IMG/VR virus record: IMGVR_UViG_2534682325_000029
Length of the DNA: 19,196 nucleotides
Strand: one strand, 5' to 3'
DNA from: a virus
Lineage: Duplodnaviria > Heunggongvirae > Uroviricota > Caudoviricetes
Position numbers and translations under genes: made by a program. Under the pieces are notes generated by a model, which was not told the origin of the DNA, searched no databases, and saw nothing but the letters and a program-made list of their open reading frames with translations. Below, piece after piece: positions 1,227-7,630 of the stretch; the stretch's first letter is position 1, and every line of letters starts with the position of its first letter.

Positions 1227-1284
1227 AGCTATATCTCACAACCGCCGCTAACTATATGCCGTTAGCGGCGATCCGGGTTGAACA

Positions 1285-3756
1285 TTAAAAATCAGCCTGA
1301 CTCGGGAGCAGTTTTTGCCAGATGGCTGAAACGTATTTTGCCTGGTAACGCGCATCGTGCAGGGCGTTATGGCGTTCACCTTCGAATGGAATAGTCGTTC
1401 TTGCGTCGAAATCCATCACCAGTCCCAGAGCAACCATCGTTCTTACATCGCGATCATTGGTGTAACGCCACGGGCAGGGGATCCCCTGCCGTTCATATGA
1501 ACGGCGTAAAATCACGTTGTCGAAAGTTGCACCGTTACCCCAGACCTGAACAAAAAATTCACCGGAGTTTTCGTCGATAAATTCCCGGAATTGCAGCAGT
1601 GCATCATCCAACGTGATTTCATCGGTCAGAATGGAGGATTGTGCTTCGCGTGACTGTTTCAGCCACCACTTAATGGTGTCCCGATCGATGACCCCACCTG
1701 CGGTTTCCAGATCGATAGTTTTGCTGAATTCTGGCCCCATCTCTCCGGTTGCCGGATCAAAAAACTTACCGGCTATAGAGTTTATTGGCGCATCAGGATT
1801 TTTTCCCATTGTTTCAAGGTCAATCATCAGATGGTGCCACAACCTGCTGGTGGATGAGATTTCATGATGACCGTTCACTTTAATTAAGGGATTTGCTGTT
1901 TCGCCAGTTTTATTATCGCTGGCGTGATACTGATCGCTGCCAGTGTTCTCCTTGTGCAGATGTTCAGTGCCTTCCATTTCCTCCGGATCATTTTTCTGAG
2001 CTTCAGCCTGATTCTCTTCATCGAATGTTTCCAGGTAGGTTGCGTTCCCCATCACCGCACCACAGTCAGGACAGTTGCCGCCACCGGTCTGACCGCATGC
2101 GGTGCAAACTTTTTCCAGTTCCTGTTGCACTGCTGGTTCTGGTTGTTGTTCTTCTGGCCCGTTTTGTTGCGTATCCGGGCTGTTTTGTTCCGCTTCTGGC
2201 TCATTTTGTTTCACGTTGGGCTGATTCTGGTCCTCAGCGTCGCGACTCTGGATCCCTTTCACCCATTTCGGATCATTCGGGTCGCTAATCCCTTCAACAA
2301 ATTCACCACGTGATGCAGCAAGCAATTTATCGGCGTCAGGCTGGCTGATATTGGCTGCCTGCATAATTTTGTTTACTTCGTCAGCGGTAACTTTTACCGG
2401 CTCTGATTGTTCGGAATCTTCAGCGGTATCCACATTTTGCGGTAAGCCCGTGTATGTGCCATTTTTTCGGGCAAAATATTCTTCTTTTGAGATTTCGGTA
2501 CCGCCGGCAGCCAGCGCCTTGTCCAGACCAGAAAGTTTGTTTGCCCTGCCGTATTTTTCCCCGCCCTTATCGGTAAAGACGAAATAAAATGGTCCTTCAC
2601 GCTCTACAGATGGTTCAGCTTCCACCAGGATTTCATTTTTTTGAGTATCGGATTCTGCCGTCTCCACTGGAGCAGTTTGTGCTGCTGACGGCTGGAGAGC
2701 ATCAGTAGAGCTCTGGTCTGTTTCTTCATGTTCAAACACGCCCTTTGTCGTCAGGTATTCACTGATATATTTGTTCAGTGCAACGGGATCTTTGTGAATA
2801 TCGATCGGACGTTCGCGAACAAGGCCAAAAATAGTCTGACGGTCATAGCCAAGTGCTTCGGGCTGTTTGCGCATTGATGCTGAGATACGCTTCCAGTCTT
2901 CGCGATCCTTGTCGATAACCTCATTTGTCGCCCAGCGATGGATGGTACCGTCAATGTTTCCTGCATCCACATCACCGGGCCAGAGGGCGCAGGCCAGTTC
3001 ATTGTCGAGTGTTTTCCATGTCTGTTTGTATTCGCGGCGAATGGCAACAGTGACAGCCCCGGTTTTTTCAGCAGCGTTTTCAGGGTTCTGTTGGTTGACT
3101 CTGGCGCGGGCGAGATCAACAACAGACGTGTATTTTCCGGTTTCCTTGCGTTCACCTTCGCGACGTTTTTTCCAGATGCGCATCTCTGCCTGAATTTCAG
3201 GCCATTTAGCGCCAGGCTCACATTTATGCTTAACCCACCCGATGGCATGCAGTTTAAGTTCAGGATACATGGCGTTAACTTCTGGCATTTTCATCAACGC
3301 TTCAACGATATGTCCGCCGAATGTTGCCATGTCTTCCTGTAGTAATTCCTGTGCGCTAATCACCATATCAACGGTGATGTTTTCGCATGTGTCGAATTTA
3401 ACCAGGACTGCGTTCTGTACTTCAGGGGACAGCTTGTCAAAATTGACGTTCATCGGATCGGATTCTGGTTCGACCGGTACAAAGGAAGCTGACTCCTCAT
3501 CCCAGCGGTTTTCCTGCATATATTCGGTATCCCAGGAATCGAGGGCAGGGCGGGGTATGCCGGGTTTATCCTCGCAGACAATAAATTTATAAGCGCAGTC
3601 CTGAGCTGCCGGGAATTGCTCCAGAAATTGCCAGTGAAATTTTGCGCGTGCGCGACGCTCATCACCGGCTTCAATGGCAGTGGCCACCGCAACAGCGCTA
3701 TCTTCTTTTATGGCCTGTTCGTCAGGAATAGCAGCGCAAATAAAGATTTTACTCAT
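1285..3756 (-). CDS. Large prophage exonuclease (823 aa): RecE-like central segment, Q/E/P-rich linker, CxxC-x8-CxxC zinc ribbon, C-terminal DEDDh 3'-5' exonuclease domain
   Basis: C-terminal motifs MIDLETMG (Exo I, D-x-E), GNGATFDNVIL (Exo II) and HNALHDARYQ (Exo III, H-x4-D with Tyr) are typical of DnaQ-like exonucleases. Central segment DADKLLAASRGEFVEGISDPNDPKWVKGIQ resembles RecE of Rac as recalled from memory. SD GAGGT precedes the ATG. Confidence 0.75.
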   Translation of the reverse strand: MSKIFICAAIPDEQAIKEDSAVAVATAIEAGDERRARAKFHWQFLEQFPAAQDCAYKFIVCEDKPGIPRPALDSWDTEYMQENRWDEESASFVPVEPESDPMNVNFDKLSPEVQNAVLVKFDTCENITVDMVISAQELLQEDMATFGGHIVEALMKMPEVNAMYPELKLHAIGWVKHKCEPGAKWPEIQAEMRIWKKRREGERKETGKYTSVVDLARARVNQQNPENAAEKTGAVTVAIRREYKQTWKTLDNELACALWPGDVDAGNIDGTIHRWATNEVIDKDREDWKRISASMRKQPEALGYDRQTIFGLVRERPIDIHKDPVALNKYISEYLTTKGVFEHEETDQSSTDALQPSAAQTAPVETAESDTQKNEILVEAEPSVEREGPFYFVFTDKGGEKYGRANKLSGLDKALAAGGTEISKEEYFARKNGTYTGLPQNVDTAEDSEQSEPVKVTADEVNKIMQAANISQPDADKLLAASRGEFVEGISDPNDPKWVKGIQSRDAEDQNQPNVKQNEPEAEQNSPDTQQNGPEEQQPEPAVQQELEKVCTACGQTGGGNCPDCGAVMGNATYLETFDEENQAEAQKNDPEEMEGTEHLHKENTGSDQYHASDNKTGETANPLIKVNGHHEISSTSRLWHHLMIDLETMGKNPDAPINSIAGKFFDPATGEMGPEFSKTIDLETAGGVIDRDTIKWWLKQSREAQSSILTDEITLDDALLQFREFIDENSGEFFVQVWGNGATFDNVILRRSYERQGIPCPWRYTNDRDVRTMVALGLVMDFDARTTIPFEGERHNALHDARYQAKYVSAIWQKLLPSQADF

Positions 3757-5132: not shown

Positions 5133-5780
5133 TTATAAGTTGAACTGTACACCTTTTGCTACGGCAACAATTTTACACTCTGGTGTAAGTAAGGATGACT
5201 GATAGCGTGGATTGAGAGGGCTTAAATACACAAGCTTCCCATCAATAACTAATTTCTTTATAGTCATAGATGGTTCATTTTTAAGCGGATCCGGAACTAT
5301 TACAGCGACGATGCTGCCATTTTTATAACTTTCTCCTGGCCTTAGGATCACAGTAGCACCAACTGGGATACTCGGTGATCCTGATGGGTTATGCATTGTG
5401 TCATCAGGCATTGAAACGGCAAAATCACCTTCCTCGACATCAAAGAATGTGGTGATTCTATCGACATTTCCCATTGTTTTCTCTCCTTTTAAGATTAGGA
5501 AAGAAATCGCCTCACCCCACGAAAGGTAGGGGATCTTGGTGCCTGAGGTACTTTGTACAAAAGATAATTCAGGAGACGATACTCCATATAGGAGATAGGA
5601 CTCAGTAGTTCCTAATGCCTGGGCTAACTTACTTAGAGCTTTGCTACCTGGTTCGTTTAGATCTTTCTCCCAGTACCCTATAGTAACCCCAGTCACGCCT
5701 GAAAGCTTACCCAGTTCTACTTGGGTCAGCCCCTTATCTTTTCTAAGTCTCTTAAGCCTGAAGCCAAGGCTTTCCATCAT
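5133..5780 (-). CDS. CI-type prophage repressor: N-terminal HTH (XRE family) plus C-terminal LexA/S24 peptidase-like domain
   Basis: N-terminal GLTQVELGKLSGVTGVTIGYWEKDLNEPGSKALSKLAQALG is an HTH_XRE signature. C-terminal ~120 aa has the size and layout of an S24 autocleavage domain. Start taken at the ATG ATG pair preceded by AGGAGA; the ORF-track start at 5792 is a TTG. Confidence 0.82.
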   Translation of the reverse strand: MMESLGFRLKRLRKDKGLTQVELGKLSGVTGVTIGYWEKDLNEPGSKALSKLAQALGTTESYLLYGVSSPELSFVQSTSGTKIPYLSWGEAISFLILKGEKTMGNVDRITTFFDVEEGDFAVSMPDDTMHNPSGSPSIPVGATVILRPGESYKNGSIVAVIVPDPLKNEPSMTIKKLVIDGKLVYLSPLNPRYQSSLLTPECKIVAVAKGVQFNL

Positions 5781-5874
5781 TTTCTCCTGCAAATTGAATA
5801 TAAATTATTTTAGATTGCATTGACCTAAAAAAAATTATCTTGTAATCTAAAAATACTTAGATTTGGGAGGTAAA
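5781..5874. promoter_or_regulatory. Putative OR region with divergent PRM/PR promoters and operator palindrome AATCTAA-N6-TTAGATT
   Basis: Intergenic region between divergent cI-like and cro-like genes. Contains TTGACC at 5820-5825, an A/T-rich -10 region, palindrome AATCTAAAAATACTTAGATT (5844-5863) and an extra TAGATT half-site at 5811-5816. Half-sites match those in the OL region. Confidence 0.5.
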
Positions 5875-6102
5875 ATGCGAGTTGATGAACTTGTCCAGTT
5901 TTTTGGTTCTGTTCAGAGGGTTGCCGATTTTTATGGGATAACCCGCGAAGCTATTTACATGTGGCGTAAGCGTCCTGGTGAAATAGTTCCGAAGGGGAGG
6001 GCTGCGGAAGCTGCTGCATACTCCAAGGGGAAATTATCTTTGAACCCAGAACTTTACAAAAAGAAGGATACCACTCAGGGCGAAGGAAAGGGGGATTCAT
6101 GA
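5875..6102 (+). CDS. Cro-like small HTH regulator (75 aa)
   Basis: Divergent from cI across the operator region. Strong SD GGAGG 4 nt upstream of ATG 5875; the ORF-track start at 5863 is a TTG. Size and basic C-terminal tail resemble lambda Cro. Stop overlaps the next gene start (ATGA). Confidence 0.65.
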   Translation: MRVDELVQFFGSVQRVADFYGITREAIYMWRKRPGEIVPKGRAAEAAAYSKGKLSLNPELYKKKDTTQGEGKGDS

Positions 6103-6524
6103 AAATCAAACATGAGCACATCCGCATGGCGATCAATGCCTGGGCCTATCCGGACGGTGAGAAAGTTCCTGCAGCTGAAATAGCCCGGACTTATTTCGAG
6201 CTGGGGATGACGTTCCCGGAACTGTACGACGACAGCCATCCGGAAGCCCTGGCTCGTAATACCCAGAAAATTTTCCGTTGGCTGGATAAAGACACCCCTG
6301 ATGCTGTTGAAAAAATTCAGGCTCTGTTACCGGCGATCGAAAAGGCAATGCCGCCTCTGCTGGTGGCCCGTATGCGCAGTCACAGCTCTGAATATTACCG
6401 TGAGATCGTCGAACGGAGGGATCGGCTGGTGAAAGATGTGGATGATTTTGTCGCAGCGGCGATCGCCTGGGGCACCCTGACTAACAGTGGTGGTCAGCCT
6501 GGTAATGCTGTTGTCGTGCATTGA
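6099..6524 (+). CDS. CII-like / YdaT-like early regulatory protein (141 aa)
   Basis: Positioned where lambdoid phages carry cII, coupled to cro by ATGA overlap, with SD AAGGGGG. N-terminus MKIKHEHI resembles Rac YdaT as recalled from memory; the family assignment needs a search. Confidence 0.5.
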   Translation: MKIKHEHIRMAINAWAYPDGEKVPAAEIARTYFELGMTFPELYDDSHPEALARNTQKIFRWLDKDTPDAVEKIQALLPAIEKAMPPLLVARMRSHSSEYYREIVERRDRLVKDVDDFVAAAIAWGTLTNSGGQPGNAVVVH

Positions 6525-6592
6525 CCAACAATATTCATGCCGGATTTCTTCCGGATGTTCGAGGGTAAAGTTCGGTATCAGATGAGGTGAGT

Positions 6593-7630
6593 ATGGCTAA
6601 TGCCTGGCTCAGATTGTGGCATGACATGCCAAATGATCCCAAATGGCGAACCATTGCCAGGGTCTCAGGACAGCCAATCGCAACAGTGATGGCGGTGTAT
6701 ATCCACCTTCTGGTGAGTGCGTCACGAAATGTCACGACATGTCACGGCGTGTCACTACGTGGTCACATTGATGTCACGACGGAAGATTTAGCAAGTGCGC
6801 TTGATGTGACGGAAGACGTGATTGATTCAATTTTGCATGCAATGCAGGGGCGAGTTCTGGATGGTGATCTTATTTCCGGATGGGAAAAACGCCAGGTGAT
6901 GAAGGAGGATAACGGTAATGTTTCGCAAACCGCAAAATCCCCGGCAGAGCGCAAGAGAGCGCAGCGGGAGCGGGAAAGACTGCGGAAGCAGAACACTGAT
7001 TGTCACGATGAGTCACGACGCGTCACGCATATGTCACGACAAATCACGACAGATACAGATACAGATAAAGAATTAAACCCCACACATAACGCGCGCATGC
7101 GCGAGAGTGCTACGACCGGTGAGTTGAATGACGCGTCGTTGCAGACAGCCGAACCTGAATACCTGGACGGCCTGAGCGAACCGATCGGGAAATTTCCGAT
7201 GACTGGAGTCTGGCAACCGTCGCCGGATTTTCGACAGCGGGCAGCAGTGTGGGGTATGGCTCTGCCTGAGCCTGAGTTTACACCTGCTGAGCTTGCCGCA
7301 TTCCGGGATTACTGGATGGCGGAGGGGAAGGTTTTCACGCAGGTTCAGTGGGAGCAGAAATTTGCCCGTCACGTGCAGCACGTCAGGGCACAGGTAAAAC
7401 CAGTCAGCAAGGGGGTAAGCCATGCAGCACCAGGTGGCACCGCATCACGGGCAGTTCAGGAAATTCGGGCAGCACGTGAACAGTGGGAACGTGAAAACGG
7501 ATTTATCAGCAACGGAAACGGCCTGGAAGCTGTGGGAACTTATGGGGGAGGTGTATTCGAACCGCTGGACCCAGAAGAACGGGGCTGCGCCGTCGAAGCT
7601 CTGGATTGCTCAGATTGGCGCGATGACTGA
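6593..7630 (+). CDS. Replication initiator, O-like, with origin iterons embedded in the coding sequence
   Basis: Position after cII-like gene and before P-like gene. Two clusters of 10-bp GTCACGAC-type direct repeats lie inside the ORF, as lambda ori lies inside gene O. ATG 6593 is preceded by GAGGTGA; the track start at 6587 is a GTG. Confidence 0.7.
   Translation: MANAWLRLWHDMPNDPKWRTIARVSGQPIATVMAVYIHLLVSASRNVTTCHGVSLRGHIDVTTEDLASALDVTEDVIDSILHAMQGRVLDGDLISGWEKRQVMKEDNGNVSQTAKSPAERKRAQRERERLRKQNTDCHDESRRVTHMSRQITTDTDTDKELNPTHNARMRESATTGELNDASLQTAEPEYLDGLSEPIGKFPMTGVWQPSPDFRQRAAVWGMALPEPEFTPAELAAFRDYWMAEGKVFTQVQWEQKFARHVQHVRAQVKPVSKGVSHAAPGGTASRAVQEIRAAREQWERENGFISNGNGLEAVGTYGGGVFEPLDPEERGCAVEALDCSDWRDD
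6719..6780. repeat. Iteron cluster 1: about six 10-bp-periodic GTCAC(G/T)AC-type direct repeats
   Basis: Read directly: gtcacgaaat gtcacgacat gtcacggcgt gtcactacgt ggtcacattg atgtcacgac. Confidence 0.8.
7001..7069. repeat. Iteron cluster 2 (five 10-bp repeats) followed by an (ACAGAT)x3 tandem hexamer and A/T-rich stretch; candidate replication origin core
   Basis: Read directly: tgtcacgatg agtcacgacg cgtcacgcat atgtcacgac aaatcacgac, then agatacagatacagataaagaattaaa. Confidence 0.75.

What the first reader, a model, noticed from the sequence alone, without database searches (positions are those of the whole stretch)
7422..7630. 209-bp out-of-frame overlap between the O-like and P-like reading frames
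The P-like frame has a strong SD (AAGGGGG) before ATG 7422, and its N-terminal region loosely parallels lambda P, yet the O-like frame stays open until 7630. In lambda, O and P overlap by only about one nucleotide. Either the genes truly overlap, P starts later (7542 or 7623), or an indel has shifted one frame.
Basis: seen in the sequence. Interest (0 to 1): 0.4.

Follow-up and report, generated by a model that had tools for sequence, protein, structure and literature searches.

The report
Replication genes truly overlap 209 bases
In this E. coli O157:H7 prophage the gene for the helicase loader (a lambda-P relative) really does start 209 bases inside the preceding replication-initiator gene, in another reading frame; related prophages and phages keep the same overlap, yet current reference annotation cuts the loader 67 residues short.

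Summary
The initiator ORF (6587/6593..7630) and the P-like ORF (ATG 7422..8084) overlap by 209 nt, and P reads +1 relative to the initiator.

RefSeq starts P at ATG 7623 (153 aa). That start is wrong: seven invariant residues of the family (R48 W49 K52 N53 G54 P57 W61) and three confidently modelled helices lie upstream of it.

In 31 of 33 usable related loci (43-93% P identity) an initiator ORF ends inside conserved P sequence, giving overlaps of 182-242 nt. Each locus keeps a Shine-Dalgarno site plus an ATG at the 7422-equivalent position. The initiator codon covering that ATG is always NAT.

Selection switches frame at about 7520. Upstream, changes are mostly silent in the initiator frame (11 silent there versus 5 silent in P). 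Downstream they are mostly silent in the P frame (14 versus 2).

The most likely start is ATG 7422, giving a 220-aa P whose leader is modelled as disordered, like lambda P domain I. ATG 7542 is the main rival. An indel artefact is excluded.

The initiator's C-terminal tail and P travel together as a cassette behind several different initiator N-terminal domains.

This is a new variant of a known module and a systematic annotation error. Interest is moderate.

The parts
6593..7630 (+). Replication initiator gene ('O-like'; YdaU / DnaT-like ssDNA-binding-domain protein, 345 aa from ATG 6593; GTG 6587 would give 347 aa). Stop TGA 7628-7630.
   Evidence: ORF list. Pfam DnaT domain PF17948 at aa 203-269, 63.6 bits. 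RefSeq CDS WP_001262409.1 at the same coordinates.
7409..7415 (+). Shine-Dalgarno site AAGGGGG for the P gene, lying inside the initiator gene (codons K-G-V).
   Evidence: Anti-SD duplex -11.8 kcal/mol, the strongest of all candidate starts. The equivalent site in 31 homologous loci has a median of -10.2, against a background of -2.9. GGAGG-type motifs sit 6-10 nt upstream of the ATG in most loci.
7422..8084 (+). Helicase-loader gene (lambda-P family), full form of 220 aa, starting at ATG 7422.
   Evidence: PF06992 at 59.9 bits. The ATG is conserved in 31/31 loci as NAT-G in the initiator frame. The exact protein is deposited as AAG57032.1 / A0A0H3JLB7. The AF2 model's best PDB matches are lambda P chains: 9oa1_Z, E 3e-6, 219 aligned columns, TM 0.38.
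7422..7520 (+). Overlap half A. The initiator frame dominates (conserved tail segment [26 protein letters not shown]). The P frame encodes a variable leader (aa 1-33) that is modelled as disordered.
   Evidence: 11 changes are silent in the initiator and non-synonymous in P; 5 are the reverse. Initiator third positions are the most variable in a second, more diverged set. P aa 1-25 have pLDDT <50.
7521..7622 (+). Overlap half B. The P frame dominates (A34-W35-K-L-W38...M41...R48 W49..K52 N53 G54..P57...W61, start of P domain II). The initiator frame encodes a variable acidic tail.
   Evidence: 14 changes are silent in P and non-synonymous in the initiator; 2 are the reverse. The contrast between halves gives Fisher p=0.004. 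Entropy is 0.84 at P3 against 0.21 at P1 and 0.18 at P2 in the diverged set. Invariant residues are listed.
7542..7544 (+). ATG for M41. RefSeq uses the equivalent start for the 180/181-aa forms in other genera. It may be a secondary internal start.
   Evidence: Near-invariant M, but CTG in L032, L035 and L037. Weak SD here, -4.2 kcal/mol.
7623..7625 (+). ATG for M68, the start used by RefSeq/PGAP in E. coli (153-aa form, 8-nt ATGACTGA overlap). Judged not to be the real N-terminus.
   Evidence: annotation. The position is M or L in homologues and lies downstream of seven invariant residues. No SD, -3.1 kcal/mol.

Best explanation
The two replication genes of this Rac/lambdoid-type prophage (CP-933U of E. 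coli O157:H7) really do overlap by 209 nt in different frames.

Ribosomes translating the initiator read through to TGA 7628-7630. Other ribosomes start independently at the SD (7409-7415) and ATG 7422 inside the initiator gene and make a 220-aa lambda-P-type helicase loader.

The overlap has two halves with opposite 'master' frames. From 7422 to about 7520 the DNA is constrained by a conserved segment of the initiator's C-terminal tail. There the P frame only has to stay open, and it yields a loosely conserved N-terminal leader that is modelled as disordered (the counterpart of lambda P domain I). From about 7521 to 7622 the DNA is constrained by the first helices of P's compact domain II. 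There the initiator frame carries a drifting acidic tail.

Shown: both frames are open, the frames carry these selection signatures, the ATG and SD are conserved, and the arrangement is family-wide. [quoted passage not shown]
For: (1) The P family alignment (27 sequences, 47-80% identity) has invariant R48 W49 K52 N53 G54 P57 W61 and near-invariant M41, all upstream of the RefSeq start M68.

(2) In 31 of 33 usable loci from about 20 genera of Enterobacterales, an initiator ORF of at least 235 codons ends 15-31 codons upstream of WPPDLAEF, inside conserved P. Overlaps are 182-242 nt.

(3) The initiator codon over the P ATG is NAT in 31/31 loci (CAT 14, AAT 14, TAT 2, GAT 1), so the amino acid changes while 'AT' stays fixed. 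The next codon always begins with G. Elsewhere in the same genes NAT:NAC is 50:50.

(4) The SD is strong at 7422 (-11.8 kcal/mol). The median over 31 loci is -10.2 against a background of -2.9 (p=7e-20).

(5) L020, L028, L031, L035 and L038 have no other ATG/GTG/TTG between that ATG and the conserved W motif. The M41 codon is CTG in three loci.

(6) Codon-position signatures in 14 close sequences: initiator third-position variability drops from 46% to 19% in the overlap (p=6e-4), and P third-position variability from 47% to 25% (p=0.004). Half A has 11 initiator-silent against 5 P-silent changes, and half B has 2 against 14 (p=0.004). An independent diverged set repeats this pattern.

(7) In the AF2 model, aa 1-25 are disordered and aa 31-70 form helices with pLDDT 83-89. 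The best Foldseek PDB matches are lambda P chains, with 219 aligned columns. Lambda P has a flexible domain I (1-29) followed by a compact domain II (~30-119) (PMC12661323). Deleting lambda P aa 9-86 abolishes its function (PMC3640518).

(8) Initiators with different N-terminal domains share only the C-terminal tail that overlaps P. These are DnaT-type, Phage_rep_O, DUF1376 or no Pfam match.
Against: There is no direct protein or ribosome-profiling evidence for any start.

The first ~33 residues from ATG 7422 are poorly conserved and modelled as disordered, so their translation is inferred only from the conserved ATG, the SD and the open frame.

M41 is near-invariant. Its upstream context is more SD-like than background in other lineages (median -6.5 kcal/mol), so initiation at 7542 may occur as well as, or instead of, 7422.

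My scripts chose the 'far ATG' partly by requiring an ATG with an SD, and the loci are phylogenetically related. The per-lineage probabilities therefore cannot simply be multiplied.

Of the two loci where P has no overlapping partner, one is a stand-alone gene between ttcA and a DEAD-box helicase gene and looks like a prophage remnant (L040). The other (L047) was not examined further.

Significant sequence homology to lambda P covers only aa 71/85-192.
Confidence: 0.8

Rival explanations
1. P starts at ATG 7542 (M41, 180 aa). The genes still overlap, but by 89 nt. The open frame, ATG and SD at 7422 would then be non-functional or would drive only a minor isoform.
For: M41 is conserved in at least 90% of homologues. 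RefSeq annotates 180/181-aa forms from this position in Citrobacter, Klebsiella, Salmonella, Brenneria and others. The upstream context in several lineages reads TGGGAGGTC-ATG, with a median anti-SD energy of -6.5 kcal/mol against a background of -2.9. Residues 1-25 are modelled as disordered.
Against: The conserved A34-W35-x-x-W38 lies upstream of M41 and belongs to a confident helix (aa 24-45). M41 is CTG (Leu) in L032, L035 and L037. In the window the SD at 7542 is weak (-4.2) while the one at 7422 is strong (-11.8). This reading does not explain the NAT-G conservation in 31/31 loci. Stand-alone P genes (L040, L047) start 26 and 10 codons before the W motif.
Confidence: 0.13
2. P starts at ATG 7623 (153 aa), as RefSeq has it. 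The overlap would be the ordinary 8-nt ATGACTGA coupling junction, and the upstream P-frame ORF would be a caller's over-extension.
For: All 12 RefSeq E. coli records inspected and phage Rac-SA53 are annotated this way. ATGA-type junctions are typical of coupled phage genes, including lambda O/P.
Against: Seven invariant residues and M41 lie upstream of this start. Between 7521 and 7622, 14 of 18 changes are silent in the P frame, and third-position entropy in that frame is four times that of positions 1 and 2. The position is Leu in many homologues. There is no SD. This start would remove three helices of domain II. The analogous lambda P deletion of aa 9-86 is non-functional (PMC3640518).
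Confidence: 0.02
3. The overlap is an artefact or decay product: a sequencing indel or a frameshift mutation in a cryptic prophage has displaced one frame.
For: The element is a prophage in a bacterial chromosome, where decay is common. One homologue (L046, Leclercia) does have a disrupted P frame.
Against: The sequence is identical in many independently sequenced O157 chromosomes (342 records at 99% or more). The same two-frame arrangement occurs in 31 loci at 43-93% identity and in isolated phages (Rac-SA53, PPompW, Chris1, and a Vibrio phage). Indels in the closely related set are multiples of 3.
Confidence: 0.01
4. The upstream part of the P frame is reached by a programmed +1 ribosomal frameshift from the initiator frame near 7510-7520. 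This would make an initiator-P fusion, while free P starts downstream.
For: The dominant frame switches from the initiator to P at about 7520, which is the pattern a frameshift site would leave.
Against: I saw no recognisable +1 shift site by eye, such as a slippery codon followed by an in-frame stop or rare codon with an upstream SD. This was not searched systematically. The conserved SD and ATG 100 nt upstream are unexplained by this reading. The initiator frame stays open 21-37 codons past the switch in all loci.
Confidence: 0.02

Closest known systems
Phage lambda O-P replication module (initiator plus DnaB helicase loader)
   Same: The gene order is the same: repressor/cro region, initiator with iterons inside its own gene, then loader. 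P matches PF06992. Its sequence homology to lambda P is colinear (aa 85-192 against lambda 94-204). The model's best PDB matches are lambda P chains. The layout of a flexible leader followed by a compact domain resembles lambda P domains I and II (PMC12661323).
   Different: Lambda O and P overlap by 4 nt (ATGA); here the overlap is 209 nt and dual-coding. The initiator here has a DnaT domain and no lambda-O Pfam match. P shares about 24% identity with lambda P, over its C-terminal two-thirds only.
Rac-type prophage ydaU-ydaV genes (Escherichia phage Rac-SA53, KU052037)
   Same: About 89% nucleotide identity over the 3' third of the initiator gene and all of P. The neighbours are the same: dicA/dicC-like, ydaT, ydaU, ydaV, ydaW (DUF1627). 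The P frame is open from the equivalent ATG.
   Different: The record annotates ydaV as 153 aa with an 8-nt overlap. The N-terminal two-thirds of the initiator differs from the window's.
Long same-strand out-of-frame gene overlaps in phages (for example lambda Rz/Rz1, phiX174 overlapping genes); recalled from general knowledge, not tested here
   Same: Two proteins are read from one DNA stretch in different frames, with reduced synonymous variation.
   Different: Here neither gene is nested. The 3' end of one essential replication gene overlaps the 5' end of the next. The dominant frame switches midway, so each protein contributes a tolerant, probably flexible end laid over the other's constrained segment.
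Lambda O' read-through product
   Same: [quoted passage not shown] That is an initiator tail encoded over the start of P.
   Different: In lambda it would be an occasional read-through product of uncertain significance. Here the extension is constitutive and conserved.

Membership tests
Lambda P helicase-loader family (Pfam PF06992) | Sequence match to the family profile above the curated threshold | tested here: met
   59.9 bits against a cut-off of 26, covering profile positions 28-161 of 162 for the 220-aa form. The 153-aa form scores 57.8 bits but covers only positions 50-161.
Lambda P helicase-loader family (Pfam PF06992) | Homology and fold shared with lambda P itself | tested here: met
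   BLASTP E 3e-6 and hhalign 92.7% probability over aa 85-192 against lambda 94-204. PDB profile hit 8v9t, E 1.4e-6. Foldseek top hits are 9oa1 lambda P chains, E 3e-6, 219 columns, with low TM (0.38) because the domain orientations differ.
Lambda P helicase-loader family (Pfam PF06992) | Binds and loads host DnaB and is recruited by the cognate initiator | not testable with these tools
   Needs biochemistry. Inferred only from homology and from the gene's position downstream of an iteron-containing initiator gene.
Lambda O initiator family (Pfam PF04492 Phage_rep_O) | N-terminal Phage_rep_O origin-binding domain | tested here: not met
   The window protein's only Pfam match is DnaT PF17948. 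A homologous cassette in L030 does carry PF04492 in front of the same tail.
Lambda O initiator family (functional analogue) | Iterons (origin) inside the initiator gene, followed by an A+T-rich stretch | tested here: met
   GTCACG-type repeats at 10-11-nt spacing at 6713-6780 and 6994-7051. GTCACGNC occurs 8 times in the window against 2.2 expected, and 5 of these lie in the gene. The A/T-rich stretch at 7049-7085 was read from the sequence.
Dual-coding (overlapping) gene pair | Both frames open across the overlap in diverged homologues | tested here: met
   True in 31/31 loci that have an overlapping partner. The expected chance of staying open is about 0.2 per lineage for each frame.
Dual-coding (overlapping) gene pair | Purifying-selection signature in both frames and reduced synonymous variation | tested here: met
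   Third-position variability falls in both frames (p=6e-4 and p=0.004). The dominant frame switches at about 7520 (p=0.004), and a second set repeats the pattern.
Dual-coding (overlapping) gene pair | Both products made from the overlapping segment (start site verified) | not testable with these tools
   No proteomic or ribosome-profiling data were available. The start at 7422 is inferred from SD and ATG conservation.

The most novel reading that the evidence does not exclude
The overlap may be a selected linkage and coupling device rather than mere genome compaction. The initiator's loader-docking tail and the loader's N-terminal region are written on the same DNA. Recombination that swaps origin-binding domains among lambdoid and Rac-type phages therefore cannot separate a tail from its cognate loader. 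In addition, translation of the initiator through the loader's ribosome-binding site could set the initiator:loader ratio. If the tail and the P N-terminal region also contact each other, the two interacting surfaces would co-evolve nucleotide by nucleotide.
Probability: 0.3. Interest if true: 0.6.

Novelty: new variant of a known kind. Interest (0 to 1): 0.42.

Why it matters
First, this is a systematic annotation error. About 1,250 of 5,426 complete E. coli genomes carry this module. In every RefSeq record inspected, P is listed as 153 aa, lacking invariant residues and most of the domain that is essential in lambda P. Other genera get 180-181 aa. Phage records use still later starts (140 and 136 aa). 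In Vibrio phage record MG592575 the overlapping loader-like ORF is not annotated at all. Surveys that count helicase loaders from annotated proteins could therefore miss or truncate them.

Second, it is a clean natural example of a roughly 200-nt same-strand overlap between two essential genes, conserved across enterobacterial genera and apparently also in a Vibrio phage. The dominant frame switches midway, which makes it useful for studying overprinting and for testing overlap-aware gene callers.

Third, it identifies a portable 'initiator tail plus loader' cassette behind at least four different initiator N-terminal architectures. That points to the roughly 60-residue tail as the loader-recruiting element, which can be tested directly.

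Tried and rejected
A protein search with only the last 85 residues of the initiator returned nothing but short E. coli fragments and gave no information on architecture. I used Pfam scans of initiators translated from the fetched loci instead.

The claim that the tail segment [17 protein letters not shown] is helical therefore has no model behind it.

Direct BLASTP, hhalign and PDB profile searches gave no significant match between the N-terminal 70-84 residues of P and lambda P. The correspondence there rests on colinearity, the Pfam profile reaching position 28, and the AF2/Foldseek result.

A promoter and terminator scan of 7000-8300 found nothing relevant inside the overlap.

Literature searches for CP-933U, DnaT-like and replication protein P found no description of this overlap. 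Absence from the searched library does not prove it is unpublished.

The +1 frameshift-fusion idea was considered because the dominant frame switches near 7520. I dropped it because no shift site was evident and because the SD and ATG are conserved.

Full report
**What is in the window.** The region is the early-right replication module of a lambdoid/Rac-type prophage.
- A LexA/CI-like repressor gene lies on the minus strand (5133..5792). It is followed on the plus strand by a Cro-like gene (5863..6102) and a YdaT-family gene (6099..6524).
- Next come the initiator ORF (6587/6593..7630), the P-like ORF (7422..8084) and a DUF1627 gene (8119..8817).
- Bases 6500-8200 are 100% identical to many E. 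coli O157:H7 chromosomes.
- The exact 220-aa product of 7422..8084 is deposited as AAG57032.1, 'unknown protein encoded within prophage CP-933U', from strain EDL933. It is also UniProt A0A0H3JLB7.

**The observation.** Both ORFs are open as described and share 7422-7630, which is 209 nt. P reads +1 relative to the initiator.
- AAGGGGG (7409-7415) sits 6 nt before ATG 7422. It is the strongest anti-SD partner of any candidate start: -11.8 kcal/mol, against -4.2 at ATG 7542 and -3.1 at ATG 7623.
- The P frame is closed immediately upstream by TAA 7416-7418.
- Lambda's own O and P overlap by 4 nt.

**How databases treat it.**
- RefSeq/PGAP starts P at ATG 7623 (153 aa, ATGACTGA junction) in all 12 E. 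coli records I opened. GenBank's Rac-SA53 record does the same.
- The PPompW phage records start it at the 7662-equivalent position (140 aa). Citrobacter phage Chris1 uses a still later start with no overlap.
- In other genera RefSeq mostly gives 180-181 aa, which is the 7542-equivalent start. GenBank, ENA and Logan gene calls give 215-223 aa.
- All three lengths of the window protein exist in the protein collection. The start is therefore unsettled in practice.
- From memory, common gene callers penalise or forbid same-strand overlaps beyond a few dozen bases. That would explain the pattern, but I did not test it.

**Where P really begins: family conservation.**
- An alignment of 27 homologues at 47-80% identity has invariant R48, W49, K52, N53, G54, P57 and W61 and near-invariant M41. 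All of these lie upstream of M68, the 7623 start, which is itself M or L.
- Upstream of M41, the motif A34-W35-x-(L/F)-W38 is also conserved.
- An AlphaFold2 model built on this alignment has mean pLDDT 78. Residues 1-25 are disordered (pLDDT <50). Helices span 24-45, 47-53, 59-66, 70-85 and 94-104, with block-mean pLDDT of 83-89 for residues 31-70.
- Its best matches in the PDB are the lambda P chains of the DnaB-lambda P complex (9oa1_Z, E 3e-6, 219 aligned columns). TM is low (0.38) because the domain orientations differ.
- The paper describing that structure gives lambda P a flexible domain I (residues 1-29), 'likely intrinsically disordered in solution'. A compact domain II (~30-119), domain III and a C-terminal lasso follow (PMC12661323).
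- Significant sequence homology runs colinearly from our residue 85 to lambda residue 94. The 220-aa form therefore matches lambda P's 233 aa end to end.
- The 153-aa form would lack the counterpart of lambda residues ~1-76. A lambda P deletion of residues 9-86 abolishes replication function (PMC3640518).

**The arrangement is family-wide.** A scan of one genome per species returned 37 loci from about 20 genera of Enterobacterales, at 43-93% P identity.
- Of the 33 loci in which the P motif could be located, 31 have an ORF of at least 235 codons in the -1 frame relative to P. It ends 15-31 codons upstream of the WPPDLAEF motif, inside conserved P sequence.
- In those loci the P frame is open back to an ATG 25-40 codons before the W motif. 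The overlaps are 182-242 nt.
- Stops occur at 4.2% per codon in the P-relative frame over the non-overlapping parts of these initiator genes. They occur at 5.0% per codon in the initiator-relative frame over the non-overlapping parts of P.
- Each open stretch therefore has only about a 0.2 chance per independent lineage. The lineages are related, so these figures are indicative only.

**The start codon carries its own signature.**
- In all 31 loci the initiator codon that covers the P ATG is NAT (CAT 14, AAT 14, TAT 2, GAT 1). The initiator residue therefore wanders among His, Asn, Tyr and Asp while 'AT' stays fixed.
- The following codon always begins with G. Elsewhere in the same genes NAT and NAC are used 50:50.
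- Upstream, most loci have GGAGG-type motifs, typically written as Gly-Gly GGA-GGT in the initiator frame. The median anti-SD energy is -10.2 kcal/mol against -2.9 for background positions (p=7e-20).
- Five loci have no other ATG, GTG or TTG between this ATG and the conserved W motif. In three loci the M41 codon is CTG.
- Two loci lack an overlapping partner (L040, L047). There P starts 26 and 10 codons before the W motif, so the motif belongs to P itself. L040 at least looks like a prophage remnant.

**Selection in the two frames.** I aligned 13 homologous loci at 87-99% identity to the window.
- In the initiator-only flank, variable sites fall 25/16/49 over initiator codon positions 1/2/3. 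In the P-only flank they fall 17/13/71 over P positions 1/2/3. Both are normal patterns.
- In the overlap the counts are 17/1/13 of 67 each by initiator position.
- Third-position variability drops from 46% to 19% for the initiator (p=6e-4) and from 47% to 25% for P (p=0.004).
- The two halves differ. In 7422-7520, 11 changes are silent in the initiator and non-synonymous in P, against 5 the other way. In 7521-7622 the counts are 2 against 14 (Fisher p=0.004).
- At the protein level the initiator segment [26 protein letters not shown] is nearly invariant while the P leader varies. Further on, the P segment [41 protein letters not shown] is nearly invariant while the initiator tail varies.
- A second, more diverged set repeats this (11 distinct sequences, each with a 215-nt overlap). 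In half B the entropy is 0.84 at P position 3, against 0.21 and 0.18 at positions 1 and 2. In half A the initiator's third position is the most variable.
- The apparent conservation of the initiator's 'EPLDxEERG' can be explained by P's invariant RW..KNG, which is written on the same bases (read directly from the sequence).

**A portable cassette.** The initiators in front of P are not one family.
- Pfam finds a DnaT domain in the window, L019 and L042. It finds a genuine lambda-type Phage_rep_O domain in L030, DUF1376 in L032 and L033, and nothing in L031, L037 and L039.
- E. coli records likewise alternate between 'DnaT-like' and 'DUF1376' partners for a nearly identical P.
- All of them share only the last ~60 residues, which is exactly the part that overlaps P.
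- In lambda the C-terminal part of O is generally taken to recruit P. PMC12661323 uses O residues 156-299 as the C-terminal domain. The P-recruiting role is from general knowledge and I did not verify it in a cited paper.
- My inference is that the shared tail is the loader-docking element, and that the overlap keeps it physically inseparable from its loader.

**Beyond the Enterobacterales.**
- A tblastn of the first 100 residues against phage genomes hit 126 Vibrio phage records at about 37% identity.
- I opened one, Vibrio phage 1.205.O (MG592575). A 217-aa ORF (L053 1959..2612) is 36% identical to P residues 33-131. It overlaps the 3' end of a winged-helix initiator-like gene (1253..2170) by 212 nt.
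- That ORF is not annotated: the record shows a gap from 2170 to 2626. Its C-terminal half has no Pfam match.
- The start there is less clear, because the SD-like GAGGA lies 14 nt upstream.

**Verdict.**
- The overlap is real and conserved, and it is not a sequencing artefact.
- P certainly begins upstream of 7623. The most probable start is ATG 7422 (confidence about 0.8). ATG 7542 is the main alternative or a secondary start.
- Still inferred are the actual initiation site, the function of either overlapping protein end, and whether the overlap serves coupling or linkage.
- The finding is a new variant of the lambda-type initiator-loader module and a widespread annotation error. It is moderately interesting rather than surprising.

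Noticed in passing
window 6713-6780 and 6994-7051 (plus A/T-rich 7049-7085): Two clusters of GTCACG-type iterons at 10-11-nt spacing lie inside the initiator gene, about 260 nt apart. The second is followed by ACAGATACAGATACAGATAAAGAATTAAA. This is probably the prophage replication origin, the analogue of ori-lambda inside O. GTCACGNC occurs 8 times in the window against 2.2 expected.
   Followed up: partly
L053 1959..2612 (Vibrio phage 1.205.O, MG592575.1 38226-38879): An unannotated 217-aa ORF is 36% identical to P residues 33-131. It overlaps the 3' end of the annotated winged-helix protein gene by 212 nt. The tblastn search hit 126 Vibrio phage records in all. The C-terminal half has no Pfam match. 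It may relate to the phage-derived VdhL loaders of Vibrionaceae (PMC11087808), which I did not test.
   Followed up: partly
L040 2426..3052 (Erwinia sp. CGal63): A stand-alone 208-aa P-like gene with no initiator partner sits between a ttcA-like gene and a DEAD-box helicase gene (identified by eye from the translations). ttcA is the Rac attachment locus in E. coli K-12 (from memory). It looks like the last surviving gene of a decayed prophage.
   Followed up: partly
L046 (Leclercia adecarboxylata NCTC13032) around 2685-2750: The P frame is open for only 21 codons upstream of WPPD, although tblastn matched residues 8-220 at 73% identity. This is probably a frameshifted P pseudogene.
   Followed up: no
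The ATG has the better SD: GAGGTGA, -6.9 against -3.0 kcal/mol.
   Followed up: partly
protein collection, clusters reported: The nominal 90%-identity clusters holding the 153-, 180- and 220-aa P forms also contain initiator (345-aa 'phage replisome organizer') and YdaT entries. The cause is unknown, but cluster membership is unreliable here.
   Followed up: no
window 8053..8817 vs 8119..8817: The DUF1627 (YdaW-like) gene has a longer possible ORF from ATG 8053 that would overlap the end of P by 32 nt. RefSeq uses ATG 8119, which has a strong SD: GGGAGGAAAA, -10.3 kcal/mol.
   Followed up: no
window 7425-7433 and homologues: The only length variation inside the overlap among close relatives is a CAG/GCA triplet gain or loss right after the P ATG (ATGCAGCAC against ATGCAGCAGCAC). 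It keeps both frames intact.
   Followed up: yes
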